The notes beneath the pieces were generated by a model. It did not search any database, had not been told where the DNA came from, and saw only the letters and a list, made by a program, of their open reading frames with translations. Below, piece after piece: positions 1-28,498 of a DNA stretch of 64,000 bases; position 1 is the first letter of the stretch; every line of letters starts with the position of its first letter. Origin of the DNA: Syntrophobacter sp. SbD2 (GTDB taxonomy: Bacteria > Desulfobacterota > Binatia > UBA9968); the NCBI GenBank assembly GCA_945889495.1, contig CAMDBU010000006.1, positions 506-64,505 of the forward strand, read 5' to 3'. The position numbers and the translations under genes are program-made.

Positions 1-742
<742 letters not shown>

Positions 743-2915: not shown

Positions 2916-3001
2916 TCTCTCTCCTGGCGATTAAACGTTGCCGTCCTTCGCTCCCTGACACCGCGATCATAGCATAGCGCGTTCCTTACGACACTCGGCG
3001 G

Positions 3002-6577
<3,576 letters not shown>

Positions 6578-13331: not shown

Positions 13332-16130
13332 ATGGACACACCCAAATATCAAAAAAGTGACCCGGCGATCCTCTTGTTAAACGAGATCGACATCCTATTG
13401 GCGCAGACGCGCTTGATGGAGTTGTATCTCAAGCAAGCCCAGGCCACCGCGGCCAACGAAAACGCCCGCATCCACGAACAGTACGAAACCGAGCTGACGG
13501 CGCTGCGCGCCGAGCTCGCCGACAAGGAACGGCAGCTCCAGCAAGCGCCGGCCATCGACCGCAATCTCACCGCGGTCGTCGAGCAACTGCAACGCGAGCT
13601 CAGCGAAAAACAGCAGTGGGTCGCCGGCCAGCACGCGGTATGGCAACGCTCCAGCGGCGAGATCGCCGCGCTGCAACAACGCATCACCCAACTCGAAGGC
13701 GAAAACCAAACCGCGCTCAACGCCGCCCGCGAAGCCAATGGGATCAGGGAAAGTCTGGTCGCCGATGTCAGCGCGCTCAACCGTGAACTGGAGAAAAACC
13801 GGCGCGAATTCGACCACCAGCAACTAACCGCGCGGCAACTCGAAAGCAGCCTACGCGAGCAGCTCCAACTGTTGCAAACCCAGCTCGCCGACAAACAAGC
13901 CTACGCCCTCACGAGCGACGACGAACTCGGCAAAGCCCGTCAAGAAATCGCCGCCCTGCGCCAACATCTGGGCTCCCTGCAAGCGCTCCAGGACGAACTC
14001 CAGGCCAATGCGACGCAATCGCTGGAGCTCGCCCAGGGCCGCTTCGAGGGCGAACTGGTCAGCCTGCGCGCGGCCTTGACCGAGCGCGATCGCTCGGTGG
14101 CCGAGAGCCAAGCCGCGCTGGTCGAGATCGAGCGCGGCCTGCGCGGTGAGATCGACCAGCTGCGCAATGAACTTGATCAAAAGCAAAACGCCTTGCGGCT
14201 GCGCGACGACGATATGCGCAGCGCCGGCGGCCAAATCGCCGCGCTCCAACAACGGCTCGCCGAGCTCGAACTCGCCCAGCGCCAAGCCGCCGCCGCCAAT
14301 GCCGAGAGTGAAAGCCGGCGCCGCGAGCTCGCCGAAGAAGTCGCCAACCTCCAGCATGAAGTGGAGGTCAAGGAAAAAGAGCTGGTCAACCGCTACGAAG
14401 CGGTGACCGCCGTCGAGCTCGCCTTGCATGGCCGCATTCAAGCGTTGCAACAGGAACTGTCGCGCGCCCACGAAGCCTCAGCCGGCCAAGAAGAGGAACT
14501 CGATCAGCAGCGCGCCGCCAGTGCGAACTTACAGAGCCGCATCGCCGAACTGGAACGCAGCCAAGCCGACACCACCCTGCTCGATGCCACCCGGCGCGAA
14601 CTGGAAAGCGATCTCAACCGCCTACGCGCCGACCTGGCGCAAAAAGAATATTTGTTAAGCGGCCGCGAGCGCGCCAGCGTTGAGTTCGAAGCGCGCGCCA
14701 GCGCCGAACTCGCCACCCTGCGCCAACAGCTGGAAGCCGAACGTGGCGCCACCGCCGAAGTCCACCGCGAAGTCGATCAAGCGCGCGCCGAACTCGCCGC
14801 CAGCCGCGACCAGCTCGAAGCCCAGCTCAAACAAAAGGACGATGAGATTGTTAGCCTGCGCGCCAATGCCAGCGGTCAAAGCGCCCAGCTGGCCCAGCAG
14901 GTCAGCGACTTGCAGACGCAACTGGCCGAGCGCGCGAGCGCGGTGGCCAGTCTCGAAGCGCGTCTCGGCGGTGAATTGGCCGCCTGGCACCAACAGTTGG
15001 CCCAAGAACGCAGCAGCGCCAGCCGGGCCAATGACGCGCTAGCGAATTTACAGGCCGAACTCACCACCCTTGGCGAACGCCACGACAGCGAGCGCCAAGC
15101 AAAAGATCAAGCATTAGCCAGCGCCAGCGCGCACAACGAGCAACTGGCCCAGCGGGTGAGCGAACTACAACTGGATTTGGTCGAGAAGCAGCTCCTGGCC
15201 GAGAGTCGGGGCGGCGAACTCGATCAGCTGCGTACCAGCGTCAGCCAGTTCAACGAACAGCTGAGCGACAATGCCGTGCGCCAAGCGCAATTGGATGACG
15301 AGCTCAACCGCTTGACCAGCGCCCGTGACGACGACGCGCGCCAGCAGACCGCCCTCGCAGTGCAGCTCGACCAAGCACGCGTTGCCAACGCCGCCATCCG
15401 CGCTGAACTGCAAGAGACCAAGAACCGCGGCGCTGAACTGGAAGCGCTGCTGGAAAGCCAGCACAGCGCCATGGCGGTGATGGAGACCGAACGCGCCCGC
15501 TTGCGCCAAGATCTCGACGAGCTCGACACGCGCCACCAGCAAAACTTGGCCGATGGCAGACAGGCGTTGACCAGCCTACGCAGTAACTTGGAAGCTGAAC
15601 TGAGCACACTGCGCGCTGAACTGCAGCAAAAAGCCTGGACCCTGGCGCAGCACCAGGCGAGCGTCGAAAATCTCGCCCAGGTGCACCGCGAGCAGATTCG
15701 TAAACTGGAAGCGCGTCTGCACGATCAACAGCCCAACACCGAAGCGTCTTCGCAAGCCGTCGAGCAGGCGCTCAGCCGCGCCAATGATTTGCAGCGCCAG
15801 GTGGAAGAACTGCAAACCGCCTTACATCAAGCCCAAGCCGCCGGCGCAAACCAGGCGGAACAAATTCGCCAGGAATACGCCGCCCGTTTGGAAGCGGCTA
15901 ACAATCAGCTGGCGGTCAAATCCGCCGAGCTCGTTAACAGCGGCGCGGTGCGCGCCAATGTCGAAGAATCCCTGCGCGCCGAACTGAGCCGGCTGCGCCG
16001 CGAAACCCAATCCCGCGCCGAAGCGCTGCAAAGCCGGGAAGAAGAGCTCAACCGCGTGCGCGGCGAAATGACCGCGGTGCAGAACCGCATCGTCCAGTTG
16101 CAGTCGGTGACCGCGCGCAGCGAAATATAG
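13332..16130 (+). CDS. giant coiled-coil protein, 5' portion (932 aa ORF) of a gene interrupted by the integrative element at ~16125; stop at 16128-16130 lies in element DNA
   Basis: pure heptad-rich low-complexity sequence (ELxxLRxEL... repeats), no ATPase motifs; frame continues seamlessly into 28499..29370 if 16125..28498 is removed. Confidence 0.8.
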   Translation: MDTPKYQKSDPAILLLNEIDILLAQTRLMELYLKQAQATAANENARIHEQYETELTALRAELADKERQLQQAPAIDRNLTAVVEQLQRELSEKQQWVAGQHAVWQRSSGEIAALQQRITQLEGENQTALNAAREANGIRESLVADVSALNRELEKNRREFDHQQLTARQLESSLREQLQLLQTQLADKQAYALTSDDELGKARQEIAALRQHLGSLQALQDELQANATQSLELAQGRFEGELVSLRAALTERDRSVAESQAALVEIERGLRGEIDQLRNELDQKQNALRLRDDDMRSAGGQIAALQQRLAELELAQRQAAAANAESESRRRELAEEVANLQHEVEVKEKELVNRYEAVTAVELALHGRIQALQQELSRAHEASAGQEEELDQQRAASANLQSRIAELERSQADTTLLDATRRELESDLNRLRADLAQKEYLLSGRERASVEFEARASAELATLRQQLEAERGATAEVHREVDQARAELAASRDQLEAQLKQKDDEIVSLRANASGQSAQLAQQVSDLQTQLAERASAVASLEARLGGELAAWHQQLAQERSSASRANDALANLQAELTTLGERHDSERQAKDQALASASAHNEQLAQRVSELQLDLVEKQLLAESRGGELDQLRTSVSQFNEQLSDNAVRQAQLDDELNRLTSARDDDARQQTALAVQLDQARVANAAIRAELQETKNRGAELEALLESQHSAMAVMETERARLRQDLDELDTRHQQNLADGRQALTSLRSNLEAELSTLRAELQQKAWTLAQHQASVENLAQVHREQIRKLEARLHDQQPNTEASSQAVEQALSRANDLQRQVEELQTALHQAQAAGANQAEQIRQEYAARLEAANNQLAVKSAELVNSGAVRANVEESLRAELSRLRRETQSRAEALQSREEELNRVRGEMTAVQNRIVQLQSVTARSEI

Positions 16131-16246
16131 CGGTGGTGGTTTTTACCGTTGTTTTTATTGATGTTTTTTAAGTGTAGTATAGTTTGTAGTATAGTACCAA
16201 CGCCGAAATAATATAATAATATCAATTACTTAGAGCGTTTTTTGCC

Positions 16247-16340
16247 TACCGCAAACCACCACAAATCTATTAAACGCGATCACCGTCACTTTGCGTAACA
16301 GTCACACACGCTGAGCATGTGTCTTTGAAAACGACACTTC
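16247..16340. repeat. ~85-bp direct repeat, copy A (copy B at 16733..16815), flanking the H-NS-like gene
   Basis: shared CCGCAAACCACC...ACTTTGCGTAAC(A/G)GTCACACACGCT...GTGTC-loop-GACAC. Confidence 0.7.
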
Positions 16341-16662
16341 AGCTTAAAACAGCAAACGACTCACGCTTTGTGCCAGCTTTCTCAGCAGCCGATAACCAAC
16401 GTGGCGCCGTACCACGTCCTGTCCACGTGTTGCCCTTGCCATCATCGTACTTAACTGCAACTTTCTCTCGTTTTTTGCCAGTAGTCTTTTTCGCAGTAGC
16501 CGCCTTACCGCCCATAGCAGCACGTAATTCTGCCAAAGTAATGTCGTTGGCACTCATCTGCTTGACGATGGCTTTGATGACTTTGCCACGCTTGCGACCA
16601 ATACGTTTTGCTTCTGCTAACAGCTTGGCGATCTGTGCTGCGATTTCCGTTGGTGATCTCAT
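16339..16662 (-). CDS. H-NS family nucleoid-associated protein (xenogeneic silencer-like)
   Basis: 107 aa; C-terminal AVKYDDGKGNTWTGRGTAPRWL matches the H-NS DNA-binding motif (YxxxxGxTWTGxGRxPxW). Confidence 0.75.
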   Translation of the reverse strand: MRSPTEIAAQIAKLLAEAKRIGRKRGKVIKAIVKQMSANDITLAELRAAMGGKAATAKKTTGKKREKVAVKYDDGKGNTWTGRGTAPRWLSAAEKAGTKRESFAVLS

Positions 16663-16732
16663 TATTACTTTGTAGTTTGTTAATGAATGGACTGTAGATA
16701 TTATATCGAATTGAATACTTTGGAATTGATTT

Positions 16733-16815
16733 TCCGCAAACCACCGTTGCCACCGTTACTTTGCGTAACGGTCACACACGCTACGCAAGTGTCGTTTTGA
16801 CACGACGCTTGCTAC
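16733..16815. repeat. direct repeat copy B (see 16247..16340)
   Basis: seen directly. Confidence 0.7.
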
Positions 16816-16866
16816 AACCACACATACTTTGCAATCCTCAACCGTCCAGCAACAGGACGGTCAGCA

Positions 16867-17241
16867 CTAAACCGTAGCTATTGTCTGCTGTGCTTTAACA
16901 AGTGCTTGCTGTGCTTTACGCTGTTGCTGCCGCGCCCGCTCCGCCGTCACAGCTTGTCCCGCACGTTTCGCTAGGGTTTTCAGCGATGCTACACGTTGCT
17001 GGTCGGGTGTCAGCGGTTTGATTGGCTTGATTGATTTGGGTTGTGCTTCAGTAACGCTGGCCGCTTCGCGTTCACGCTCAGCAGCCGATTCAAGCGTTCT
17101 TGCTATTAAATCATGCAACCACTTATCGTGTCGTGCCTTAATTGTACTAGGATGATTAGGTTGGATTTCATGTATACGCATTGGGTATTTAGCGACACAA
17201 GATTTTTCATGCAAATCTTCAACTACTACAAAAAACTTCAA
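16867..17241 (-). CDS. hypothetical protein, paralog of 21009..21236 (shared AKYPMR[IL]HEIQP...TPDQ[QR]RVA[ST]L motif)
   Basis: 124 aa; ~100 nt near-identical DNA shared with 21100..21215. Confidence 0.5.
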   Translation of the reverse strand: MKFFVVVEDLHEKSCVAKYPMRIHEIQPNHPSTIKARHDKWLHDLIARTLESAAEREREAASVTEAQPKSIKPIKPLTPDQQRVASLKTLAKRAGQAVTAERARQQQRKAQQALVKAQQTIATV

Positions 17242-18050
17242 TCGCAGTTCTTGTAATTGCGAGCTTTACACTCACGTGCAAGTTTTTGTGCCGCAGCTAT
17301 CTGCTGTGTTGTCATCTTTGCTGCAACTATGTCTCTGTTTTTTTCAGCGTCTGCATTACTTTTTACCGCAGCCAAGTTCCACCACATGTGTGCACGTACA
17401 TAATCTTGCACAACACCTCGCCCGTTTCCATACATGATGCCTAAATTGTATTGTGCACGAGCAAGACCTTGTGCCGCTGCCAACTTGTACAACTTCACCG
17501 CCTCTGCATAATCTTGCACAACACCTTGCCCATTTTGATACATGAAGCCTAAATTGCTTTGTGCATCAGCAAGACCTTGTGCCGCTGCCAATCTATACAA
17601 CTTGACTGCTTCTGCGTAGCTTTGTACAACACCCTTCCCTACGTAATACATTACACCTAATTCATGCTGTGATAATGAGAGGCCTTGTATTGCAGACAAT
17701 TTTAATAAACGAACCGCCTCCGTATAATCCTGTACAACTCCTTTTCCATCAATTAGCATTTCAGCTAATTCAAACTGGGCAAGCATGTGACCTTGAGCTA
17801 TTGCCAAGTTAAACCACCGTATCGCTTCTGGGTAGTCCTGCTTTACGCCGAACCCATATTTGTACATCGCCCCAATCTGAGTTTGTGAATATGCATCGCC
17901 TCGTGCTGCTGCAATTTTAAATTTCTTAAGTGCCATCGCATAGTCTTCTTTTGCGAACGCAGCATCACCATCCTCAACTTCACCCGCCCAAACAACAGCA
18001 CTGACTACAATTGCCAGTGTGACAAAAATAGTTCGCAATATCGGCATCAC
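17238..18050 (-). CDS. Sel1-like repeat protein with N-terminal signal peptide
   Basis: 270 aa; repeated A..G.A.AQ..LG.MY..G.GV.QDY.EA..W motifs. Confidence 0.8.
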   Translation of the reverse strand: MMPILRTIFVTLAIVVSAVVWAGEVEDGDAAFAKEDYAMALKKFKIAAARGDAYSQTQIGAMYKYGFGVKQDYPEAIRWFNLAIAQGHMLAQFELAEMLIDGKGVVQDYTEAVRLLKLSAIQGLSLSQHELGVMYYVGKGVVQSYAEAVKLYRLAAAQGLADAQSNLGFMYQNGQGVVQDYAEAVKLYKLAAAQGLARAQYNLGIMYGNGRGVVQDYVRAHMWWNLAAVKSNADAEKNRDIVAAKMTTQQIAAAQKLARECKARNYKNCD

Positions 18051-18227
18051 TTATTTCCCTTGTAGTGACCACATCGTACATTACGCGCTTGTGCCACTAC
18101 CAAAGCACAAGCACTACAATGCGTTAGCTATTCTGATAGCGCTGCCGACTAAACTTTACATAGCTAGCGTAAATATAACCAAGATTGGAGCGAGGGCAGC
18201 ACAAGCAGTCGCTTGATATGAAATCAC

Positions 18228-18476
18228 CTAATTAACTTTTATAACCACATCGCAATTTCGGGCTTCGCTATTTGTGAGGTAAGAACAATTAATATTTCCA
18301 TTTATTACCTCGCCTTTTATTAGTGCACCATCTTGTTTTACCCAATCTTGCTCCTTCGTTCCGCATACTTTGTTTAATGCCTGGCGAATTGCTTTTGGGG
18401 AAACATTTTTATTTACTGTTATCAAAGCAGTTTGGAGCTGATTTCCCTGCTTCCATTGAGCGTTGACACCCACCAC
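18228..18476 (-). CDS. small hypothetical protein
   Basis: 82 aa ORF in AT-rich cargo; no recognisable motif. Confidence 0.3.
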   Translation of the reverse strand: MVGVNAQWKQGNQLQTALITVNKNVSPKAIRQALNKVCGTKEQDWVKQDGALIKGEVINGNINCSYLTNSEARNCDVVIKVN

Positions 18477-18605
18477 ATCTATACCGAGAAAATTATTTAT
18501 TTTATTTAATGCACCATTGTCAGTAAATTCAGATTATCTAGCTCGCGATCCCACCGCTTTGGATAGGCTTAAACTAAATAGCACTTTTTGAATAAGGTCA
18601 TGTTG

Positions 18606-20288
18606 CTACTGCTTTCGATATTTAGTGATCGAAAAAGCTGGTGCAATAGGACCCACTACGTGGGCAGTTTGGTAGACATAATCTTTATCTAAAAAATAGA
18701 CAGTGAATGCATCAGGACTCCCCACTTCGCCGTAGTCAACAAAAATGGTTCTAAACGTGTCATCAGAAATTTCGTCGAGGATTTTTTTATAAGATTCTGA
18801 AACAGCTTTCATTTTTTGGTAGTCAGCTGCTGAAATTACCTTTTGTTGCAACCATCCAGTGAGGCTATTCAAATCTTTATTTATATCTGTCGCTAATTCT
18901 TTTTTAGTGATTTTTCCTTTGTAATAAGCTAAACATTTTTTTTGCGCGGCAGTTTCATTTTTCACCCATTGACAATCTCCAAACTTCGTTTCGCTAATCG
19001 TCAATTTCTCAGCACTGCCTGACCGCCACACCCCAAGCCATCGATTATTAATGGATAGCGAATCCTGAGGCGCCGTCGCGGTTGCTGGCTGAGCAAGTAA
19101 ATATGACATGCCGGCTTCTTCAATAGCGCCATAAAAACTTTGCTGAAGGAATTTACCTAAACAATCTTGATCATTACAGTCAACCTTATAAACCCCTGAG
19201 TATGCTGTTTTATGGTCAAGTCGGCGTTTAGTTGCATTCTCTTCAGCGTATATATTAAGTCTTCTAATTGCCCATGCAATATTCTTAAAGTCTTCACGTG
19301 CACAGATTAATTGCAATCCTTTGTCACTGATATCACTGCAATTAGGCGGAAGAACATCCGCGTACGACGCGCTCTCTTTCATATGTTGCAAAATTAAATT
19401 GTAGTGTGATGTTTTGATATTCCAATTCTCTAAAGGTTTATTGTTATCATTCTTACTGGTTACACCTTCTCTGACCCCGTTTGATTCACCCTTAGTTTCT
19501 GGCTTTGCATCTGTGCGCTTAGCTTCTGTTGGTGGTGCCTGAACCACTTTATTGATATTCCTAACAAATGAAAGTGTGTCTTCATGACCATCGTTAGTTG
19601 TTAGTTTTAAAGTAAAGCTACCGTCCTTTGAGCTTATTTTTCTAAGTGCCCATACGACTGAAGTATTATTGTTTACGATGAGGCTCAGAATATCACTGCG
19701 GCTATCCCATTCCATTACTTTAACAGGAATCACTTTCCCATTAATTTCTATTGATTTATTGTCGCTTTTCAAGCTTATAACAACAGTGGCCTGATCAGTA
19801 TCACCCTTCCAGACACCGCTTAAATCATCTAAGGGATCACTTCCTTTAAAATCTATAAAGGAAACGATAGCAATTGTAGCGATTATCGATGCGATTCCAA
19901 TATACGCCAACTTATTTTCATCGGATTTTTCTTTTACGAATATCTTTTTGTAATAGTCTATGTTAACCCATCCACCAAAAACCAATGGCATAATAAAATA
20001 AGTTGATGCGTTTAAGTATTGCAATAATTTTATTTCTGGAAAGACTGATTCTAATAATGCTGTCAAAACACAACCGAGGGTTATTATCCCAAAGAGGAAC
20101 AGCCCCTTCTTCGACATTCCTAAGTGTACGTAATAAAAAACACCGAAAATAAATCCCCAAATATTGAATGCCGCCGTCACTCTTTCGCTTAAAGATAAGT
20201 TCTTAACTAAGGGGAGTTTCACACCACCGGCCTTGTCAATTAGATCAAATCTTTTTTTCCATTTACCACTAATTTCTTGCTCGGACAT
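18606..20288 (-). CDS. large membrane/extracytoplasmic protein with N-terminal DUF2628-like membrane module
   Basis: 560 aa; N-terminal NIWGFIFGVFYYVHLGMSKK resembles DUF2628; very AT-rich codon usage. Confidence 0.55.
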   Translation of the reverse strand: MSEQEISGKWKKRFDLIDKAGGVKLPLVKNLSLSERVTAAFNIWGFIFGVFYYVHLGMSKKGLFLFGIITLGCVLTALLESVFPEIKLLQYLNASTYFIMPLVFGGWVNIDYYKKIFVKEKSDENKLAYIGIASIIATIAIVSFIDFKGSDPLDDLSGVWKGDTDQATVVISLKSDNKSIEINGKVIPVKVMEWDSRSDILSLIVNNNTSVVWALRKISSKDGSFTLKLTTNDGHEDTLSFVRNINKVVQAPPTEAKRTDAKPETKGESNGVREGVTSKNDNNKPLENWNIKTSHYNLILQHMKESASYADVLPPNCSDISDKGLQLICAREDFKNIAWAIRRLNIYAEENATKRRLDHKTAYSGVYKVDCNDQDCLGKFLQQSFYGAIEEAGMSYLLAQPATATAPQDSLSINNRWLGVWRSGSAEKLTISETKFGDCQWVKNETAAQKKCLAYYKGKITKKELATDINKDLNSLTGWLQQKVISAADYQKMKAVSESYKKILDEISDDTFRTIFVDYGEVGSPDAFTVYFLDKDYVYQTAHVVGPIAPAFSITKYRKQ

Positions 20289-20372
20289 GGCGTTTCCTTT
20301 AATAAAAGTTTGTCTGAATGTCAGTCCTAATTTAACTCAAGATAGATACTGAGATCCCAGTTATAGCGCTGT

Positions 20373-20900
20373 CTAAATTAGCGAAGCAAATTCTATTGCA
20401 AGTAAGATAAAAATTATGAGCAAGGTGATCAATGCGCCCCAGATACTGGTTCCCCCGATTAGCGAAAAATGTAAGGGTGAGTTGGCCACCCTATGTTTGG
20501 TATCGATGTGATCTAGGTACTGCCCGTTAGCATATATTCCGCAGTATGCGACTACTCCTAGATAGAGTAGGTAGCCAACGATATCGCTTTTCGTAACGTA
20601 CACGGCAATTAAAAACGGGAAAATGGTTCCCCACCATAATACCTGTGCAGTTCGCATATACATTTTTCGGTAAGCGAACCAAAGAGATCCCAGTATCGCA
20701 GCCGGCCAATTCCAGGATCGAAAACTTACAAAAGATGCCCCAGCATTTGTATTGCAAAAGTTTTCAAATTGATAGCGGTAATAGTTAACGTTATTTTTTA
20801 TAAACCGCTCAAATTCCTCCGATGCAACAAACTCCGCAGTTATTCTGCGCTCACCTTCTACGCTTACTTTATTTGGTGTCTGTTGATCGCGGGAATTCAT
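20373..20900 (-). CDS. DUF2628 family membrane protein
   Basis: 175 aa; SWNWPAAILGSLWFAYRKMY hallmark. Confidence 0.65.
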   Translation of the reverse strand: MNSRDQQTPNKVSVEGERRITAEFVASEEFERFIKNNVNYYRYQFENFCNTNAGASFVSFRSWNWPAAILGSLWFAYRKMYMRTAQVLWWGTIFPFLIAVYVTKSDIVGYLLYLGVVAYCGIYANGQYLDHIDTKHRVANSPLHFSLIGGTSIWGALITLLIIFILLAIEFASLI

Positions 20901-21008
20901 TTTATTTAAGCCGCTTGCAAAACATTTTGTTGTCGGAAAAAGAAACGACTTATTTGTTTAGACTGTGAAAAACGCTATTTTTCTACTGCTGTTCAAACTG
21001 AAGAAAAT

Positions 21009-21236
21009 TTAAAATCCTCCGATGGTGCCAAACGGACTAAAGAGGCGTTTTGAGTCATTTTGGCTACAGTAATCGCAGTAATACTTTTTTGACTGCTTGA
21101 TCTCCACGTTTCGCATAGTTTGCAGCGTTGCTACACGCCGCTGATCTGGTGTTTTTGGTTTGATTGTTTTCGGTTGGATTTCATGTAGACGCATTGGGTA
21201 TTTAGCCAACTCTCCCATACCTAAGAGATGTGGCAC
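21009..21236 (-). CDS. hypothetical protein, paralog of 16867..17241
   Basis: 75 aa; LAKYPMRLHEIQPKTIKPKTPDQRRVATLQT. Confidence 0.45.
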   Translation of the reverse strand: MPHLLGMGELAKYPMRLHEIQPKTIKPKTPDQRRVATLQTMRNVEIKQSKKYYCDYCSQNDSKRLFSPFGTIGGF

Positions 21237-21257
21237 ATCACAGTCTTGTTGATACCG

Positions 21258-21779
21258 TCATTCACAAAACCTAAGCTGTTTATAACCATCGAAATATAAA
21301 TTAAGGGGTTTTCCGTCGATCTCAGCAGACCTCAGTTTATATCCTTTTGTTTCTAAGTTATATAGCCATTGGTAGGTAAGCTTCCCCTTTTTTTTCGTCA
21401 CTGTCGCTTCAATTATTACTAAAGTAGGGTTATTGGCATCCGTTACAAAACTTCGCCAGTTCACACTCCCTTCGAGAGCAACGCAGGCAGCGACAGAAAT
21501 CCCTGCTTCAGTTTTCTTCATCACTGCTATCTCCCCGCTCCTGGAAAAAAAGAAAAATATTGCGGCCAGAACGGCCACACTAGCTATTGGCATCGCCCAG
21601 TTTCGGTTTGAGGTCGCAATTGGTTGTTCGGGCATCCTTTCTTGTGATGCTACTTGTGCCGATAGACTAGGTGCATTTGCCGAAGATACAACCACATCAT
21701 CTTCTACTTTAGTTCCGCATGTGTCGCAGAACTTAACGCCTTGCAATAGTTGCTTCCCGCATCCTGTGCAATAAGCCAT
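21258..21779 (-). CDS. zinc-ribbon domain membrane protein
   Basis: 173 aa; N-terminal CTGCGK...CDTCG zinc ribbon, one TM segment. Confidence 0.55.
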   Translation of the reverse strand: MAYCTGCGKQLLQGVKFCDTCGTKVEDDVVVSSANAPSLSAQVASQERMPEQPIATSNRNWAMPIASVAVLAAIFFFFSRSGEIAVMKKTEAGISVAACVALEGSVNWRSFVTDANNPTLVIIEATVTKKKGKLTYQWLYNLETKGYKLRSAEIDGKPLNLYFDGYKQLRFCE

Positions 21780-21917
21780 ACGCTGCTCCCTATTTTCAGT
21801 TCATACCTTTGCCGCTACTAATCCCGATAACAGCCGTTTCAAAGTATTCCACCGTCCAGTACCAGTTTACGAATAAATCTGCGTGATACTGCAAGGGTCA
21901 GACACAGAACGCCGTTG

Positions 21918-22352
21918 CTAACGCTTGAACCCCCGACGCACCACCGCACTGACCGCCTCAATCTGTGCATCAATTTCACCACTCTCCACCGCTTTACGCA
22001 AAACTGCAAGCGTAGCATTCAATTCTGCCGCCGTCGTCTCTACCGCAGTTCGCCCTCGTGCCAATTCCACCACTTTGTTGCCGTATTTGACAGCAACACA
22101 CACCTTGCCACCGTCCACAGCCCAAAACCACGCTTTCACACGTTTGGGTTGCTGTACCACGCTGACATTGCCCGCCGCATCCTTTACACGTTTACTACGC
22201 ATAGCGGTGTAGACGGTACCCGCAGTTTTCGCCGCTGCCAGTGCTATTTGCTCATCCAGTTTTGCCAACAGCTTTTGACGACGCTGTATGACAGGGTTGT
22301 TTTCGCGTTGCGGTTTTGCGGCTACCAATTTCAGTGTGTTCAGTGTGCTCAT
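21918..22352 (-). CDS. hypothetical protein (element core)
   Basis: 144 aa ORF, no recognisable motif. Confidence 0.45.
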   Translation of the reverse strand: MSTLNTLKLVAAKPQRENNPVIQRRQKLLAKLDEQIALAAAKTAGTVYTAMRSKRVKDAAGNVSVVQQPKRVKAWFWAVDGGKVCVAVKYGNKVVELARGRTAVETTAAELNATLAVLRKAVESGEIDAQIEAVSAVVRRGFKR

Positions 22353-23611
22353 TTGTCGTTCTCCCTCTAGTTAAACTACTGAACACACGATAACGTCTGA
22401 TTTTTCAGAATACGAGTGAAGATTATTTTCACATATTGTTTGGTTTGTATAAATAACTATGACGCGAACAGAATGTTGTTTGTTGCCAGATTTGCCGTAG
22501 TTATACGTGCGATCACATTACTACCGAAAAAACGTGCAGCACCACACAGTCGCTTTGGTGCCCTAAAACTGGCCATTGATGTGCACAGGGACGGAAACGC
22601 TGCGCGGTAGCAGCGACTTGCAGTCACTATCCATAATGGACGCATTCGCATTTGTCAGCGAATTGGCGCAAGGAGAAACGAATTTGACACGAAGATGAAG
22701 CTGTGAGAACCCTACAGCTTGCGTCACAAGCAAGCACTGCCTACACGGCAACTTGCAAACTTGCAGTGGTCGTCACTTTGGCTGCTGCACTTAAGTTGCG
22801 TTTGATCAGCAGCACGTAAAAGGAGACCGCCAAACTGCCCTTTACCTCATACAGGTTGTGCCAAAGTGTTAGTGGTAAGAACTCAGCGAATGAGATTTCC
22901 ATATTGAGCCTGTTGCTTAAGGCTCAGTGTGAGTTGAATCTTGCGAATGGGTGTGTATTAAAAGCAATTCATGTATTCAATGCTTCAAATCATTTAATAG
23001 TTCGCGACTTTTTAAAACTACTAAAACTGGAAGTTAAAAAAAATCTGCAAGTCAGCAATACGTAATGAGCGTAGCGAATGAAGTAGTGCGACGCAGCAGA
23101 AACTGAGCGCGAAGCGTTCAGTTAAAAATAGACTGCCAAATAATGCTGCACGAGGCTATGGGTTGAGGTTTTTGTAACCATCTCTGTCAGCAAAACCTTC
23201 CAGCATTACAAAACCACCCTGTTGTGTCAATCATCAGCACCTGGCTGTTACATGGAACTGATACAGCACACGGCTACGCACTACACACCGACTACAGCGG
23301 TTAACGCTGAGACGCACGAAACAACGCCGCAAGCGTTTTGGTACAGCGTGGGCAAGCGTGGGTAGCTGAATGCTGCCTGACAACGCGATAACGCACGATA
23401 ACGTTGCTGAAGCGATTTACGCGACACACAGCACTGCACCCGCTATGTACAGCCCAATTCAGAATCAAATAGTTTCACTAAAGTATTTGGTCAGACGCGA
23501 ACTGCTTGAAATCATTGACCTCTTTTGCAGAGCCAGTTTCGGTCGTATTTTCGGAACAACGAATGCACAATAAATACACGACTATTATTTGATTAACGGG
23601 AGAAACGACAA

Positions 23612-24178
23612 ATGGCGCAAGCACGTACACTGAAGGAAAAAGAACTCAAACAACTACTGCAATTTATTGCTTTTCGCAAACACGCATTACGGAACCGCTG
23701 TATGTTGCTGATTACGCATTGGGCTGGAATGCGGGTTGGAGAAGTGGCTGCACTGCAATACTCAGATGTGCTGGCAGCAGACGGCAGCATACTTGCCGAA
23801 ATACGTTTGGCAGCAGATCAGACTAAAGGCGACAAAGCACGTGTTGTGTATGTGGCAGAAAAACTACGCAAAGAACTGCTGAACTATGTTCGCACTTACC
23901 CGCAGACTAACCCAACACGCCCCTTGTTTTACACGCAGAAACGCGACCACTTCACAGCAAACACTTTGGCACAGCACTTTTTCTGGTTGTACAAGGCGGC
24001 AGGGCTAAATGGTGCTTCGTCACATTCTGGCCGAAGGACTTTCATCACTACTTTGGCAAACAAGGGGGTCAGTGTGCGGTTACTGCAAGCTCTTGCTGGT
24101 CACCGTTCAATTACCACTACCCAAGTGTATATCGACGTAAATGACGCGATGAAGCGAGCGGCGGTGGAACTGGTGTGA
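23612..24178 (+). CDS. short tyrosine recombinase (catalytic domain only, phage-integrase family)
   Basis: 188 aa; R...HSGRRTF...LAGHRSITTTQVY (R-HxxR-Y catalytic residues). Confidence 0.75.
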   Translation: MAQARTLKEKELKQLLQFIAFRKHALRNRCMLLITHWAGMRVGEVAALQYSDVLAADGSILAEIRLAADQTKGDKARVVYVAEKLRKELLNYVRTYPQTNPTRPLFYTQKRDHFTANTLAQHFFWLYKAAGLNGASSHSGRRTFITTLANKGVSVRLLQALAGHRSITTTQVYIDVNDAMKRAAVELV

Positions 24179-24312
24179 GTGTCGTTTTGAAAGACACTTA
24201 TGCACGGACTGCTGTGGAATCAGGCTAAAACTTCGGTGTGGGAGTTTTGCTGCTGCAATCTTGTTGAGATTGCTGCAACCGTCCAGCAACGAGACGGTTG
24301 CACTTCGAAACA

Positions 24313-25020
24313 TTATTTCTTTTTGCTGGGAACCACAGACAAACCGCACTGCGCTGATTTCGCAACAGTAGGTAGGGGCGGCAGTGCCAAGCCGTTACGA
24401 GCCAAGTAGATGAGTTCATCCAGCTTGTTCATGTAATCGCGCAAGTCGCCTGTTGACTCCACCAGTTGCAAACAGTACAGAGCCTGCTGATCCGACAAAT
24501 GAACGTCTTCGCTCTGCAGAATTAATTGCGCTCTAGTTAGAACTTGACGTGCGCTCAAAGCAGGGAAATTTATCAGGCCACAGCGCGAACGCAGACTTTT
24601 GTGAATGTTCATCGCATCGTTGGTCGTGACAATCAACATGACTCTGTCCTGCACGGCATCAAGCGCTTTCCAAAAATTGGCGAAATCCCCTTTTAGGGTA
24701 TCTAGTTCCTCCGCCACGATAAACAATTTCTCTCCCTCCTCAAGAAATATAACGGAGGTCGCGCTCTGTAAATAAGTACGTAGATTTTTCATGCGCACGA
24801 GTTCTTCCATGTCTTTGTGTTCAATTCGTGCGTGTGCGCCGCCGATAGCCACTGGCAGTAAACGCGCCGCTGTACTTTTTCCAGTACCGTTCGGCCCCCA
24901 AAGCAAGATGTTTCCTTCAAGTGCCTTGTTTGCATAGGCGTCAATTCGGGTTTGCACAGCCAGGCTGGGGTAGATCACATCGCCAAGTGACTGGGGTGCG
25001 TATTTGATAGCGGTTTTCAT
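24313..25020 (-). CDS. clamp-loader-like (RFC/DnaX-type) AAA+ ATPase
   Basis: 235 aa; KYAPQSLGDVI...LLWGPNGTGKST (RFC box II/III), Walker B IFLEEGE, SRC arginine-finger motif LRSRCGLINF. Confidence 0.7.
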   Translation of the reverse strand: MKTAIKYAPQSLGDVIYPSLAVQTRIDAYANKALEGNILLWGPNGTGKSTAARLLPVAIGGAHARIEHKDMEELVRMKNLRTYLQSATSVIFLEEGEKLFIVAEELDTLKGDFANFWKALDAVQDRVMLIVTTNDAMNIHKSLRSRCGLINFPALSARQVLTRAQLILQSEDVHLSDQQALYCLQLVESTGDLRDYMNKLDELIYLARNGLALPPLPTVAKSAQCGLSVVPSKKK

Positions 25021-25092
25021 GTTTTGTGTTCCTTTGTGTAGTGGTTTTTTTTGTGTATGTCGAAAAGGGGAGTTCCCTCCCCCTTTCGGTCA

Positions 25093-25878
25093 TTAAGCTA
25101 CTTTTGCGAAAACATCCGCGTTGGCCGCCATCCCCAACAAATCGCTAGCCTCTTTGTTGAGCGCCTGATCTGCATCTTTTTGACCAGCGCGAACTTTTGC
25201 CATGCGTATCAGCAGTGCCTGAACGAGAGCTTCGTTGATGTCGGACAAAACACCCACAATAGAAACCATGCCGTCTGGTGCAGGTTTAGCCAGCAAAACA
25301 GCGTAATCCCCAGTGACGCCCGCCAGCGACAGCGTTGCCAATGGAGTAATTGTCGCTAGTTCCACGTTCGCTTTGACTTCGCCAGTAGCCGAAACAATCG
25401 CAGCACGTTTCGCCTGTGCCGCTTCTGACACCACCATATCGCGTTTGATTTCTTCGATGCCGCCTTGTTCTGCGATGTAAGCGGGCAGATCGTTAGCGGT
25501 GATAGCTTTAGAAATCGCCGCTTTGAGCACGTAGGCATAGCCATGCGCACGTTTGCGATCTGAGCTGAATACGAAACGCACGAACATCGTGAGTGTCGTC
25601 GTGTTGCTCTGCACTTTGACTCCATCCGCTGTAAGCCGCGCACAAAGCTCATTGCGCAGCGTCTTACGGCTGTTGCCATCAGCGTTTACGAACTTGTTTT
25701 GGAATACGTCCAAGCAGCCCGCAAGCAACGCGTACAGCCCATCATTAGCTTTCTTGTAGTCAGTTATTTCCCACTGCTGACGACGCTCAGACAGAGCGTC
25801 CAGAGACTGGACGATGCCATTTGCAATAATCATGTTGTCGTTCGACGGGGTAAAGGCGGTTTTGACAGATTTGCTCAT
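25093..25878 (-). CDS. hypothetical protein upstream of the AAA+ ATPase (likely start ATG 25876-25878 with GGAGA RBS)
   Basis: 262 aa; ORF track version starts 37 codons earlier. Confidence 0.5.
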   Translation of the reverse strand: MSKSVKTAFTPSNDNMIIANGIVQSLDALSERRQQWEITDYKKANDGLYALLAGCLDVFQNKFVNADGNSRKTLRNELCARLTADGVKVQSNTTTLTMFVRFVFSSDRKRAHGYAYVLKAAISKAITANDLPAYIAEQGGIEEIKRDMVVSEAAQAKRAAIVSATGEVKANVELATITPLATLSLAGVTGDYAVLLAKPAPDGMVSIVGVLSDINEALVQALLIRMAKVRAGQKDADQALNKEASDLLGMAANADVFAKVA

Positions 25879-26017
25879 TTTGATTCTCCGATTTAAAAGT
25901 CGGCGCGATGCTGGTGGCGGAATTGCCAGAAGTTGTATCGCGCTGACGAATAGGATTAGATCACTAAGAACTAATAAATCAGTCAACAACCAATAATCAG
26001 TTATTATCTGTAGACAT

Positions 26018-26953
26018 ATGAAAGAACAATTGCTTCCGTGGTACCTCCGTAGCGCGGATTTCTACAAACCGAACTGGCACACACGGCCTACGATTGGCTT
26101 TGAGTTGCTGTTTGAGTTTTTGCGGCTCAGCCCTAGCTATGAACTGGCCCGCAAAGCCAGCATGGAAGGGCTAAGCACTGCTGACCAGCTACTATTGCCG
26201 CCAGATTTTGAGCAGGTAAAAAACACCTATCAGCTCTTGGGCGATGTGCAAAAAATCTTGTTTCGGCAATGGTGGATCGCAAGAGGACTCAGCACCTTTG
26301 GCAATCCCTACGCACGCCCAAAATTGCACGCAGTCGCACAACTGGCAGGTGGGAAAGATATTTCGGCTGAAACCCTCGTAGGTAACTTCGAAAGTTACCT
26401 AGCTGGAGCGCGTCATGAGGAAGGGCTAGTGGATAGCGTGCTCATCGCAGTCCCTTTGGGCCTACGTCAATCAGAAATCCGCAGACAGATGTCCGCTATT
26501 CTTACTGCCTATTCAGGCCATGAGCAAAACTCACGGCAAAGTCCATTGATAAAATTGCAAGGCAAGCGGCTGCGATCAAAGGTGCTGTTCAATGGCCTAC
26601 GACTGCTTTGGTTTAAAGCTGCAAAACCCCAATGGGAACACTGGCGGCTGGGTGCTAAATCAAGATTCAGCGTCACCTATTCCAAAGAACTCAATCCTGC
26701 CAATCCCCGTAGAGTGGTCAGCACGCTGGAATCGTACGATAGAGAGATGATGACAAAAATCACCAATCGCGCGCTGAAGAAATTCGAATCCATTGCGGAG
26801 AACGCAGCAAGAGGGCGATTCCCTTCGCAAGACCCAGTCCATCCAGTAGATTTTCAGTATCCGTTTCTTGCCAAACGAATACAGCGCAAAAACACATGGG
26901 AACAAGAGGAGAAAGCACGGTTACTTGCGGCATTCCGCAGCCGTCGGCATTAG
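26018..26953 (+). CDS. hypothetical protein
   Basis: 311 aa ORF adjacent to integrase; no motif recognised. Confidence 0.5.
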   Translation: MKEQLLPWYLRSADFYKPNWHTRPTIGFELLFEFLRLSPSYELARKASMEGLSTADQLLLPPDFEQVKNTYQLLGDVQKILFRQWWIARGLSTFGNPYARPKLHAVAQLAGGKDISAETLVGNFESYLAGARHEEGLVDSVLIAVPLGLRQSEIRRQMSAILTAYSGHEQNSRQSPLIKLQGKRLRSKVLFNGLRLLWFKAAKPQWEHWRLGAKSRFSVTYSKELNPANPRRVVSTLESYDREMMTKITNRALKKFESIAENAARGRFPSQDPVHPVDFQYPFLAKRIQRKNTWEQEEKARLLAAFRSRRH

Positions 26954-27101
26954 TGCAAGACCGTCCCGTTGCTGGACGCTTGCTGAACGTAACAGCCCAG
27001 CACGACCCAGCCCACTCACGTATTCGCCCCTATTTCACCGTCGGTTCGGCGGTGATTTTGGTTTGGTGCTGCCGCAGAGGGCTGTCGTGCAAATCCGAAA
27101 C

Positions 27102-28370
27102 TCAGGCTTTCTGCCGCTTCTTCGTCGGTTTCATCGACTGCAATTTAGCCACGTTCATTTCGTTCTGGTAATGACTGCCGTAGAAACGTGTGATCATTTC
27201 CGCGCTAGTTCTGGCATTTTGCGCCAACGTATTCCAGTCGATGTTGTCGCCCTTAGTAATCCGAAACATGATTGCTGTGTGACGCAGGCTATACAACGTG
27301 CGCACCGTACTTTTCGCATCCAGTCGCAAATCAGTCACTTCTAGCAAGTGGTAAAACAGTCGCACCAGCTGTACGTAAGCGTAGTCTCTGTTGCGATGCT
27401 CTGGCATAAACACGTAATCGTCGTCTTTAGCCAATTTCCGTTCAGCTTGATATTCTCGTTGCCGTTCATACACTTCAACGGCGATGGGCATACTGATGAA
27501 GGGCTTGTTGTGCTTTTTGGTGGTTGGGGGTGACAAGCGCAAATACGTGTTGTCCTTTCGCACTACTGCCACATGCGAATGCTTCAGCACCTTAATATCT
27601 GATGGCCGCACGTAAGTGTTGACCATAAACAAGATCAAGTTATGCAACTCTTGTGTAAATCGCATCCGCCGCTCTGCCTTACCTTGCGCATTACGCACAA
27701 CGATCTCAGTGCCTACTAATGCCTTCGCTTTGTTATGCAGTTTCGTGTATTCCCAACTATTAAAATAACCACGCGGGTCATCTTCCATAGTGATGGTGGG
27801 AAACGCGGGTAAGTGCGGGATGATTTGCTTGCGGTGGGCGTGCTTTAACACTTTACGCAGCAGCGATTCGTGTAACTTAAGCGTTGCGACCTTCAGCCCT
27901 TTTTCCGTCAGCGTGTTTAAGTAAGTCTCTATAACCGTGTAATCAATCTGCCCCACATCGTATGTGCGGAAATACGGCAGCATGTGTACACGCAGACGGC
28001 TTTGTTCGTTGACGTTGATGCTTGCGCTGAGTTCCCCGCGCTTGATGCGTGACTCTTGCAACTTCAGCATCTCTTTCGCGCAAACCTCAAAGCGCGAATT
28101 TTTACCAATAACTAAACCACCCGTCTTACGCACAAGCAGCTCTTCGTAAAAGGCAATGGCTGCCTTAAACGCTTCGTTCTTCTTATCAGTTTTTGTAGTG
28201 CGTTTGAAAATTCTTCCGCTATCGTAAAAACGTGCCCAATAAAATGGGGAGGCGTCGATGCGGAATATGACTAGCTTGCTTGGATAATTCGGTACAGATT
28301 CAACAGTAGAGGGAATAGGAACTGTTCTGTGCCTACTAATTACCAAAGCTGTTTCATGCTTAGTATCCAT
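27102..28370 (-). CDS. int: tyrosine-type site-specific integrase (P4-like, ~420 aa)
   Basis: C-terminal LYSLRHTAIMF...Y catalytic box; N-terminal arm-binding-like region; located at element end next to tRNA-like att fragment. Confidence 0.88.
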   Translation of the reverse strand: MDTKHETALVISRHRTVPIPSTVESVPNYPSKLVIFRIDASPFYWARFYDSGRIFKRTTKTDKKNEAFKAAIAFYEELLVRKTGGLVIGKNSRFEVCAKEMLKLQESRIKRGELSASINVNEQSRLRVHMLPYFRTYDVGQIDYTVIETYLNTLTEKGLKVATLKLHESLLRKVLKHAHRKQIIPHLPAFPTITMEDDPRGYFNSWEYTKLHNKAKALVGTEIVVRNAQGKAERRMRFTQELHNLILFMVNTYVRPSDIKVLKHSHVAVVRKDNTYLRLSPPTTKKHNKPFISMPIAVEVYERQREYQAERKLAKDDDYVFMPEHRNRDYAYVQLVRLFYHLLEVTDLRLDAKSTVRTLYSLRHTAIMFRITKGDNIDWNTLAQNARTSAEMITRFYGSHYQNEMNVAKLQSMKPTKKRQKA

Positions 28371-28446
28371 GCTTGTAGTATAGCTTATACTATACTACAA
28401 AATCAACCACGTAAATTCCTAACTGATTGAATTTACGTGGTTTTTT

Positions 28447-28498
28447 TGGTGGAGACGAGGAGGATCGAACTCCCGACCTTCGCATTGCGAAAGCGAAG
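28447..28498 (-). tRNA. 3' half of a tRNA-Ala(CGC)-like sequence (CCA end, T-arm GGGAG-TTCGATC-CTCCT, acceptor 3' strand CGTCTCC with U70, A73 discriminator); fragment only, att-site derived, not a functional tRNA
   Basis: manual fold of reverse complement; no matching 5' half (no D-arm, no complementary acceptor strand) downstream. Confidence 0.6.

What the first reader, a model, noticed from the sequence alone, without database searches (positions are those of the whole stretch)
16339..16662. H-NS-like xenogeneic silencer encoded on the AT-rich element
A 107-aa protein has the H-NS C-terminal DNA-binding signature (KYDDGKGNTWTGRGTAPRWL) and a helical N-terminus. Mobile elements often carry their own H-NS paralogs ('stealth' proteins), and the element is much more AT-rich than the host. 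The gene is flanked by an ~85-bp direct repeat (16247-16340 and 16733-16815).
Basis: partly seen in the sequence, partly recalled or inferred. Interest (0 to 1): 0.6.

Follow-up and report, generated by a model that had tools for sequence, protein, structure and literature searches.

The report
H-NS-like gene on integrative island
A small AT-rich mobile island that has jumped into a host gene carries its own copy of an H-NS-type DNA-coating protein, a well-known trick by which mobile DNA is thought to keep itself quiet in a new host, so the finding is real but ordinary.

Summary
ORF 16339-16662 (-) encodes a 107-aa protein whose C-terminus matches Pfam PF00816 (H-NS C-terminal domain; 47.8 bits, cutoff 25.6). 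The predicted fold and the best solved-structure matches are the DNA-binding domains of Ler, H-NS and Bv3F. It belongs to the short, betaproteobacterial 'Bv3F/RGR-type' H-NS branch, but has R-G-T in place of R-G-R, and that position varies across the family. The gene is the last gene of a 12,367-bp integrative island (16126-28492; GC 45% versus 59% in the flanks). The island has a tyrosine integrase and a tRNA 3' fragment at the other end, and four copies of a 10-mer found only at its two ends. Here it sits in a secondary site inside a coiled-coil gene. Related metagenome contigs show the same hns end next to a tRNA 3' end, and one shows a circular-form junction. The flanking direct repeat is real: about 84-93 nt with a 15-nt indel. 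It is a conserved two-hairpin 3' module that also follows a small neighbouring ORF family, so it is not a private feature of hns. Island-, plasmid- and phage-borne H-NS homologs are well documented. This is a new member of a known kind, and silencing was not tested. Whether the host has its own H-NS could not be determined.

The parts
16339..16662 (-). hns-like gene (107 aa, stop included); last gene of the island, transcribed towards the left junction
   Evidence: Purifying selection: 10 synonymous and 0 nonsynonymous codon differences against L004.
16516..16653 (-). N-terminal helical part (residues 4-49): long amphipathic helix 4-38 plus helix 43-49; presumed oligomerisation domain
   Evidence: AlphaFold2 model, pLDDT 82-91 over this part. 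Hydrophobic residues fall every 7 positions (I7, L14, I21, V28), read from the sequence. The only solved N-terminal domain matched is TurB/MvaT 5b52 at E 0.83, which is not significant.
16348..16458 (-). C-terminal H-NS DNA-binding domain (residues 69-105)
   Evidence: PF00816 at 47.8 bits. Foldseek gives Ler 2lev (prob 1.0, rmsd 1.8 A), H-NS 2l93 and Bv3F 2l92. The family profile against PDB gives Ler at 9e-12, StpA at 9e-8 and Bv3F at 1e-7.
16408..16416 (-). R83-G84-T85, at the position of the AT-hook-like Q/RGR minor-groove motif
   Evidence: Alignments to Ler (VGR) and Bv3F (RGR). The third position varies in the family: RGR 77, RGP 51, RGK 28, RGS 19, RGL 13, RGM 12, RGT 5.
16248..16340 (-). 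Downstream copy of the two-hairpin repeat; begins at the hns stop codon
   Evidence: It is conserved downstream of hns in L004, L005, L006, L007, L100 and L105.
16733..16816 (-). Upstream copy of the repeat; lies 3' of the small ORF 16867-17241 and about 70 nt 5' of the hns start
   Evidence: (z -3.3 on the gene-sense strand). The same arrangement is seen in L005, L007 and L100.
16700..16705 (-). TATAAT hexamer 38-43 nt upstream of the hns ATG; candidate -10 element with no convincing -35
   Evidence: Read from the sequence. The consensus scan did not call a promoter here.
16867..17241 (-). Small ORF (124 aa, AKYPMRIHEIQP...TPDQQRVA), neighbour of hns and followed by the same repeat; paralog at 21009-21236
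   Evidence: No Pfam, PHROG or PADLOC match.
16126..28492 (.). Integrative island, 12,367 bp, GC 45.3%; bounded by a 6-bp direct repeat GCGAAA (16120-16125 and 28487-28492)
   Evidence: Deleting it restores a single 1,223-aa ORF. Homologs P0177 and P0179 are continuous across the junction. Composition.
16173..16194 (+). Two direct copies of TGTAGTATAG at the hns end of the island (candidate recombinase arm sites)
   Evidence: Four copies in the window, all at the island ends; 0.01 expected.
28374..28399 (.). Two inverted copies of TGTAGTATAG between the integrase start and the tRNA fragment
28447..28492 (-). 46-nt 3' part of a tRNA gene, from anticodon loop to CCA; tRNA-Ala(CGC) by my own parse; the element-borne half of the attachment site
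   Evidence: Sequence. It is identical in L005, where chromosomal DNA follows it, and in L100, where it joins the two island ends. ARAGORN finds no intact tRNA in the window.
27102..28370 (-). Tyrosine integrase (422 aa) at the end opposite hns
   Evidence: phrog_1 integrase, E 3e-19. The Pfam Phage_integrase and SAM-like hits are weak and below cutoff.

Best explanation
The gene encodes a full-length member of the short, betaproteobacterial (Bv3F/'RGR'-type) branch of the H-NS family. It is carried as an accessory gene at the far end of a 12.4-kb tyrosine-integrase island that normally targets the anticodon-loop region of a tRNA gene; here the island has landed in a look-alike site inside a host coiled-coil gene. 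[quoted passage not shown] Inferred from the family: the protein self-associates through its N-terminal amphipathic helix. It inserts the R83-G84 loop into the narrow minor groove of AT-rich DNA. It coats and bridges the island's own AT-rich cargo (38-45% GC) and attachment region, and so dampens transcription of island genes. This would supplement or spare the host's own silencer and lower the cost of carrying the island, as proposed for Sfh, Pmr and Hfp/H-NSB. The two-hairpin repeat most likely acts in the mRNA, as a 3' stem-loop that ends or stabilises the transcripts of hns and of the small upstream ORF.
For: PF00816 scores 47.8 bits against a 25.6 cutoff. There are weak partial matches to the NCBIfam StpA and H-NS equivalogs. 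PDB sequence hits are Ler, Bv3F, H-NS and StpA. The AF2 model has helix 4-38, helix 43-49, a low-confidence linker at 50-70 and a beta-beta-alpha-helix C-terminal domain; its best structural matches are Ler, H-NS and Bv3F C-terminal domains. Homology to H-NS-like genes of Bordetella, Achromobacter, Pusillimonas and Paraburkholderia is full-length: residues 7-105 at 35-46% identity. The family is large: 5,331 representatives at E<=1e-3. Window against L004 shows 10 synonymous and 0 nonsynonymous codon differences. Island evidence: an exact in-frame restoration of the host gene, an integrase, a tRNA fragment plus end-specific 10-mers, the same end next to a tRNA in L005, a circular-type junction in L100, and GC of 45.3% against 59.4%. 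Repeat: the hairpin-2 stem is kept by several one-sided changes that give G-U pairs only on the gene-sense strand. Literature: the Q/RGR minor-groove mechanism and the Bv3F family in GC-rich Proteobacteria (PMC8476142); H-NS homologs on islands, plasmids and phages (PMC7074111).
Against: The third residue of the minor-groove motif is Thr, not Arg. Changing QGR or RGR to AGA abolishes binding in H-NS and Bv3F (PMC8476142), so affinity or specificity may differ; however, this position is variable throughout this branch. The N-terminal domain has no significant match to any solved oligomerisation domain (best is TurB, E 0.83), and no multimer model was made. There is no evidence for expression: no promoter was called and the Shine-Dalgarno sequence is weak. 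Some relatives of the element keep only a 3' remnant of hns (L097, L101/L102), so the gene is dispensable for the element. The hairpins are not followed by a U-tract, so they are not canonical intrinsic terminators, and no pair shows a double compensatory change. It is unknown whether the host has its own H-NS.
Confidence: 0.62

Rival explanations
1. It acts as an anti-silencer or modulator, like Ler, rather than a silencer. On this reading it binds the same AT-rich DNA but displaces or remodels the host's H-NS filaments, so that island genes are switched on instead of off.
For: The best solved-structure match by both sequence and fold is the Ler C-terminal domain (44% identity over 39 columns). 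The RGT motif departs from the silencer consensus. Ler is also island-encoded (PMC7074111).
Against: Full-length similarity is to ordinary H-NS-like proteins of Alcaligenaceae and Burkholderiaceae. Closest relatives in the same 90% cluster carry canonical RGR, so RGT looks like drift at a tolerant position. Ler's similarity is confined to the shared domain.
Confidence: 0.15
2. Its main role is architectural, in recombination. It bends or coats the AT-rich attachment region and so controls integrase expression, excision or integration of the island, rather than silencing cargo.
For: The gene ends 213 bp from the left junction. In the circular form it lies about 330 bp from the integrase start, separated only by the att core and the four TGTAGTATAG sites. 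The lowest-GC 100-nt windows of the island include 16126-16250 (GC 0.28-0.29). The hns end lies next to the attachment site in L005, L100 and L105.
Against: No dedicated test was possible. H-NS proteins bind broadly rather than at a single site. Variants of the element without intact hns exist, so recombination cannot depend on it.
Confidence: 0.12
3. hns plus its 3' hairpin module is a mobile gene cassette, and the hairpin repeats are recombination sites that move it between elements. The flanking repeat would be the footprint of cassette insertion.
For: The gene with its downstream repeat is found beside unrelated neighbours. These are a cytosine-methyltransferase-like ORF in L004 (identified by my own reading of the sequence, not by a tool) and a 403-aa ORF in L006. 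Similarity to the window stops at about 16273-16281, the outer edge of hairpin 2. Repeat units sit at mosaic breakpoints in L090, L097 and L103.
Against: There is no integron-type integrase nearby, and the hairpins lack the attC GTTRRRY core (sequence read). The G-U-only substitutions favour an RNA-level rather than a DNA-level structure. Shared terminator-like modules are common breakpoints for ordinary homologous recombination. Upstream breakpoints differ from locus to locus.
Confidence: 0.08

Closest known systems
Bv3F (Burkholderia vietnamiensis) and the 'RGR-type' H-NS proteins of Betaproteobacteria, including the Bordetella and Achromobacter H-NS-like proteins
   Same: About 100-125 aa. 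N-terminal helix, flexible basic linker and C-terminal PF00816 domain with W-[ST]-G-R-G-x-x-P-[RA]-W-L. Similarity is full-length, 35-46% identity. The hosts are GC-rich (PMC8476142).
   Different: R-G-T instead of R-G-R. The gene is on a small integrative island rather than shown to be a core chromosomal gene. The closest genome-collection hit is only 57% identical (L008, a Lake Erken betaproteobacterial MAG).
Hfp/H-NSB and the H-NS homologs of the EARL/ROD21 and serU genomic islands of Enterobacteriaceae
   Same: Full-length H-NS homolog carried by an excisable, AT-rich island that targets a tRNA gene and has a tyrosine integrase (PMC7074111).
   Different: It belongs to a different H-NS branch (QGR type, gammaproteobacterial), a different integrase and tRNA target, and a much larger island. 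The present island is 12.4 kb and carries no recognisable virulence, conjugation or defence cargo.
Sfh (plasmid R27/pSf-R27) and Pmr (pCAR1), the 'stealth' silencers
   Same: A mobile-element-encoded paralog of the host silencer, proposed to stop the element's AT-rich DNA from titrating host H-NS (PMC7074111).
   Different: Those are on conjugative plasmids and were shown experimentally to interact with host H-NS/MvaT and to reduce fitness cost. Nothing of that kind has been tested here.
Ler (LEE pathogenicity island)
   Same: Island-encoded. It is the best solved-structure match to the C-terminal domain.
   Different: Ler is an anti-silencer with VGR in the loop. The N-terminal parts are not detectably similar.

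Membership tests
H-NS family (Pfam PF00816; Bv3F/RGR-type branch) | C-terminal H-NS DNA-binding domain above the curated HMM threshold | tested here: met
   47.8 bits against a cutoff of 25.6, E 1.2e-12, covering profile positions 2-38 of 38.
H-NS family (Pfam PF00816; Bv3F/RGR-type branch) | Fold of the C-terminal domain: two short strands, a helix and a short helix | tested here: met
   AF2 model (pLDDT 83-86 in this part) has E71-73, a bridge near 79-80, H88-95 and H100-103. Foldseek top hits are 2lev, 2l93 and 2l92. This is a prediction, not a solved structure.
H-NS family (Pfam PF00816; Bv3F/RGR-type branch) | AT-hook-like loop T/S-x-Q/R-G-R-x-P-A that enters the minor groove | tested here: inconclusive
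   The sequence is T81-G-R83-G84-T85-A-P87-R. The first Arg, Gly and Pro are present; the second Arg is Thr. This position is non-Arg in most of the 150 best family representatives.
H-NS family (Pfam PF00816; Bv3F/RGR-type branch) | N-terminal coiled-coil oligomerisation domain joined by a flexible linker | tested here: inconclusive
   A long amphipathic helix 4-38, helix 43-49 and a low-confidence linker 50-70 are predicted. There is no significant hit to solved N-terminal domains (TurB 5b52, E 0.83). Oligomerisation was not modelled.
H-NS family (Pfam PF00816; Bv3F/RGR-type branch) | [quoted passage not shown] | not testable with these tools
   This needs biochemistry or genetics.
Mobile-element-encoded ('stealth') H-NS homologs (Sfh, Pmr, Hfp/H-NSB) | The gene lies inside a horizontally acquired element that has its own mobility functions | tested here: met
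   The island 16126-28492 has an integrase, a tRNA-derived att half and end-specific repeats. Removing it restores the host ORF. Independent copies sit at a tRNA and as a circular-type junction.
Mobile-element-encoded ('stealth') H-NS homologs (Sfh, Pmr, Hfp/H-NSB) | The element is more AT-rich than the host chromosome | tested here: met
   GC is 45.3% against 59.4%; cargo genes go down to 38%.
Mobile-element-encoded ('stealth') H-NS homologs (Sfh, Pmr, Hfp/H-NSB) | The host has a chromosomal H-NS-family protein with which the element's copy overlaps or interacts | not testable with these tools
   There is no second homolog in the 64-kb window (profile search of all six-frame ORFs). The host genome is not in the genome collection.
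Mobile-element-encoded ('stealth') H-NS homologs (Sfh, Pmr, Hfp/H-NSB) | Presence of the gene lowers the fitness cost of the element | not testable with these tools
   This needs competition experiments.
H-NST-type truncated antagonists | N-terminal domain only, with no DNA-binding domain | tested here: not met
   The protein has a complete PF00816 domain.
Integron gene cassette (attC) reading of the flanking repeat | IntI-type integrase nearby and attC with R''/R' cores (GTTRRRY) | tested here: not met
   The island's recombinases are a 422-aa phage-type integrase and a 188-aa tyrosine recombinase, neither adjacent to the repeat. The repeat has GTTACGC, which does not fit GTTRRRY.
tRNA-targeting tyrosine-integrase genomic island | Integrase at one end, an element-borne copy of the tRNA 3' part, and flanking direct repeats | tested here: met
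   Integrase at 27102-28370 and tRNA 3' part at 28447-28492. In this window the direct repeat is only 6 bp because the island is in a secondary site. L005 shows the tRNA-adjacent end.

The most novel reading that the evidence does not exclude
The conserved two-hairpin unit that follows hns and the small ORF family is more than a transcript end. It would be a recombination hotspot or site that lets hns move as a self-contained cassette among small freshwater betaproteobacterial islands, and the RG-T/M/S variants would tune which DNA each island's silencer recognises.
Probability: 0.08. Interest if true: 0.6.

Novelty: new member of a known kind. Interest (0 to 1): 0.27.

Why it matters
This adds a clean, compact example outside the Enterobacteriaceae of an island that brings its own H-NS-type protein: 12.4 kb, with defined ends and a documented canonical site, secondary site and circular junction. 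Such an element would be a convenient system for testing whether a self-encoded silencer lowers the cost of acquisition in GC-rich freshwater Betaproteobacteria. It could also show what the variable third residue of the R-G-x loop does to DNA preference. It does not change the current understanding of xenogeneic silencing.

Tried and rejected
- Integron/attC reading of the flanking repeat: rejected. There is no IntI, no GTTRRRY core, and the G-U-only substitutions point to RNA.
- Known RNA family for the repeat: none in Rfam at E<=1.
- Canonical intrinsic terminator: not called, and there is no U-tract.
- RGT as an exceptional, possibly inactivating change: rejected as exceptional, because the position is variable across the family.
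- Phage origin: no tblastn hit in 50,697 phage records and none in IMG/VR contigs. There is only a PHROG of unknown function (phrog_10171).
- Plasmid relatives: only C-terminal-domain hits, 57-59% identity, in Ralstonia megaplasmids and one Sphaerotilus plasmid.
- Defence cargo on the island: no meaningful PADLOC hit.
- Host identification and the search for a chromosomal H-NS: failed. The window's genome is not among the GTDB species representatives scanned (best hit 57%), and the contigs carrying the exact protein are unnamed metagenome assemblies. No DNA was available for the P0005 context.
- N-terminal domain homology to solved H-NS, MvaT or TurB domains: not significant.

Full report
**1. 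Checking the observation**

KYDDGKGNTWTGRGTAPRWL occupies residues 71-90.

- Pfam PF00816 (H-NS C-terminal domain) matches residues 71-105 at 47.8 bits against a curated cutoff of 25.6 (E 1.2e-12).
- The NCBIfam equivalogs for E. coli StpA and H-NS match only weakly and far below their cutoffs. That is expected for a distant branch of the family.
- Against PDB sequences, the single protein finds Ler, Bv3F, H-NS and StpA C-terminal domains.
- A 40-sequence family profile finds the same domains much more strongly: Ler 9e-12, StpA 9e-8, Bv3F 1e-7, H-NS 7e-6.

**2. The protein**

An AlphaFold2 model built on 13 close relatives has mean pLDDT 80. It shows:
- a long helix at residues 4-38 and a short helix at 43-49;
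- a low-confidence basic linker at 50-70;
- a small domain with strands at 71-73 and about 79-80, and helices at 88-95 and 100-103.

Foldseek against the PDB returns only the Ler, Salmonella H-NS and Bv3F C-terminal domains as credible hits. The N-terminal helix has hydrophobic residues every seven positions (I7, L14, I21, V28; read from the sequence). It has no significant match to a solved oligomerisation domain; the best is TurB/MvaT 5b52 at E 0.83.

An exhaustive profile search of 1.84 billion representatives shows that the family is large. It gives 5,331 hits at E<=1e-3 and 613 at E<=1e-10, and many are full-length matches to 100-125-aa proteins.

In one genome per species, the best hit is 57% identical, in a Lake Erken betaproteobacterial MAG. 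The next hits are 35-46% identical over residues 7-105 and come from Bordetella, Achromobacter, Pusillimonas, Pigmentiphaga, Castellaniella, Polaromonas and Paraburkholderia.

This is the branch the literature calls Bv3F-type or RGR-type H-NS, typical of Proteobacteria with 32-42% AT (PMC8476142).

**3. The DNA-binding loop**

Alignments to Ler (VGR) and Bv3F (RGR) put R83-G84-T85 at the AT-hook-like Q/RGR motif. The second arginine is therefore a threonine.

This looked like a possible oddity, because QGR or RGR changed to AGA abolishes binding (PMC8476142). It is not exceptional, however.
- Across the family representatives the triplet counts are RGR 77, RGP 51, RGK 28, RGS 19, RGL 13, RGM 12 and RGT 5.
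- Within the protein's own 90% cluster, R, M and T alternate.
- The invariant features are W80, G82, R83 (nearly invariant), G84, P87 and W89.

**4. The gene is functional**

The window and L004 encode the identical protein but differ at 10 codons, all synonymous. More distant copies show 12-17 synonymous against 8-14 nonsynonymous codon differences. This is the pattern of purifying selection.

**5. The element**

GC falls from about 60% to 39-50% between about 16.1 and 28.5 kb. The exact figures are 45.3% for 16126-28492 and 59.4% for the rest of the window.

Evidence for the island boundaries:
- Removing 16126-28492 (12,367 bp) fuses ORF 13332-16130 in frame to ORF 28603-29370, giving one 1,223-aa coiled-coil protein.
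- Homologs from other metagenomes (P0177, P0179; 73-74% identical locally) read ...SARTESEAREISQAKSGLE... without a gap across that exact point.
- The island is bounded by a 6-bp direct repeat, GCGAAA.

The right end of the island carries:
- a 422-aa tyrosine integrase (phrog_1, E 3e-19; Pfam hits are weak);
- 46 nt that are the 3' part of a tRNA gene, from the anticodon loop to CCA. By my own parse this is tRNA-Ala(CGC), with U70 and A73.

No intact tRNA is present in the window. The 10-mer TGTAGTATAG occurs four times in the window, twice at each island end, with 0.01 expected by chance. These are candidate arm sites.

Independent contigs complete the picture.
- L005 has the same hns end (99.3% identical) joined through the tRNA 3' part to unrelated chromosomal DNA. 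This is the canonical insertion.
- L100 has the hns end joined through the tRNA part to the integrase end (99.4% over 485 nt). This is the junction expected of the excised circle, though an assembly join through the 46-nt repeat cannot be excluded.
- L105 shows a related element next to the 3' part of a different tRNA.

The window therefore shows a tRNA-targeting island that has integrated at a secondary site and broken a host gene.

hns is the last gene of the island. It is transcribed outward and ends 213 bp from the left junction.

**6. The flanking repeat**

The repeat is confirmed, with details.
- The copies are 16248-16340 and 16733-16816. A 46-nt core is 87% identical, a 12-nt block is exact, and there is one 15-nt indel.
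- Each copy holds two hairpins. The upstream copy folds better than all 200 shuffles on either strand.
- In an alignment of seven copies, hairpin 2 extends to 16 pairs. Several positions vary on one side only and remain paired as G-U on the gene-sense strand; they would be A-C mismatches on the other strand. There are no double compensatory changes.
- No Rfam family matches, and no U-tract follows.

The repeat is not private to hns. A metagenome scan with the hairpin-2 core found 18 contigs. The unit follows hns in L100 and L105. It follows the small AKYPMR.HEIQP ORF in L090, L100 and L103. In L097 and L101/L102 it sits beside mere 3' remnants of hns.

Similarity between the window and other hns contexts (L004, L006, L007) stops at the outer edge of hairpin 2.

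My reading is that this is a shared 3' stem-loop module that ends or stabilises the transcripts, and that it also serves as a breakpoint for mosaic recombination. An integron-like cassette site was considered and rejected.

**7. How it most likely works**

Shown here:
- a selected, full-length H-NS-family gene;
- a location on a mobile island that is 14 GC points more AT-rich than its host.

Inferred from the family (PMC8476142, PMC7074111):
- oligomerisation through the N-terminal helix;
- minor-groove binding of AT-rich DNA by the R-G loop;
- coating and bridging of the island's AT-rich cargo and att region, which damps its transcription and supplements or spares the host's silencer.

The rival readings are a Ler-like anti-silencer, an architectural factor for excision and integration, and a mobile cassette. 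None is excluded, and all are less likely.

Remnant-only variants show that the element does not need hns.

**8. Limits**

- The host was not identified. The contigs carrying the exact protein are unnamed metagenome assemblies.
- Hints point to a freshwater member of the Burkholderiales. These are the taxonomy of the nearest genome hits, a Burkholderiaceae label on one homolog of the interrupted gene, and a Polynucleobacter-1 RNA inside the island (PMC2864571).
- No second H-NS homolog exists in the window, and the rest of the genome could not be examined.
- No phage record or IMG/VR contig carries a relative. Plasmid hits are limited to the C-terminal domain.

**9. Verdict**

Both the observation and the interpretation are sound. 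H-NS homologs on tRNA-targeting islands, plasmids and phages are well documented: Hfp/H-NSB, the EARL/ROD21 islands, Ler, Sfh and Pmr (PMC7074111). This is a new member of a known kind, in a lineage and habitat where such islands are little described. Interest is modest.

Noticed in passing
window 13332-16125 + 28493-29370 (junctions at 16120-16130 and 28487-28493): The island interrupts a 1,223-aa coiled-coil ('chromosome segregation ATPase'-like) host gene at a secondary site that shares only GCGAAA with the tRNA attachment core. Homologs elsewhere are uninterrupted across this point. The truncated 5' part gains one codon and a stop from the island.
   Followed up: yes
window 16173-16194 and 28374-28399: TGTAGTATAG occurs four times in 64 kb, only at the two island ends (two direct copies, two inverted copies). 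These are probably integrase or excisionase arm sites.
   Followed up: partly
window 22534-22670 (+): A full-length Polynucleobacter-1 RNA (RF01718; 93.5 bits against a gathering score of 37) lies inside the island, in a 1.2-kb stretch without long ORFs between the DUF6641 gene and a short recombinase gene. Its function is unknown. It was described only from Burkholderiales and freshwater metagenomes.
   Followed up: partly
window 16867-17241 (-) and 21009-21236 (-): Two paralogous small ORFs share AKYPMR[IL]HEIQP...TPDQ[QR]RVA. They have no Pfam, PHROG or PADLOC family and recur in related contigs (L006, L090, L100, L103), often followed by the same hairpin module as hns.
   Followed up: partly
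window 23612-24178 (+): A second, short (188-aa) tyrosine recombinase consisting of little more than the catalytic domain (PF00589, 100 bits) sits in the middle of the island.
   Followed up: no
L100 1380-1700; L105 1000-1100; L005 950-1020: Related elements appear as a circular-type attP junction (L100), next to the 3' part of another tRNA (L105; Thr-CGT by my parse) and next to the tRNA-Ala 3' part (L005). The lineage therefore uses several tRNA targets at the anticodon loop.
   Followed up: partly
L097 2175-2315; L101 2909-3058; L102 819-968: Some variants of the element keep only the last ~30 codons of hns plus the hairpin module, so hns has been lost or replaced repeatedly.
   Followed up: partly
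protein P0029, also P0033, P0049, P0088 and others: The family search turned up an 801-aa protein with 11 tandem H-NS C-terminal-domain-like units, and many 160-350-aa proteins with 2-4 units. This is an unusual multi-domain architecture for this DNA-binding domain.
   Followed up: no
window 24313-25020 (-), 25093-25989 (-), 26018-26953 (+): The island core has an AAA ATPase resembling clamp-loader subunits (phrog_168, E 2e-21) beside two proteins with no family. This may be a replication or mobilisation module.
   Followed up: no
window 653-6577 (-): The host flank holds a protein with a short DUF1156 anti-phage-associated match (70 bits, far below cutoff) next to a 1,191-aa SNF2/DEAD/NOV_C helicase. 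This may be a defence locus.
   Followed up: no
L004 1-898: In another metagenome, an identical H-NS protein (10 synonymous differences) sits beside an ORF that looks like a DNA cytosine-5 methyltransferase. That identification is my own reading of the sequence and was not tested with a tool.
   Followed up: no
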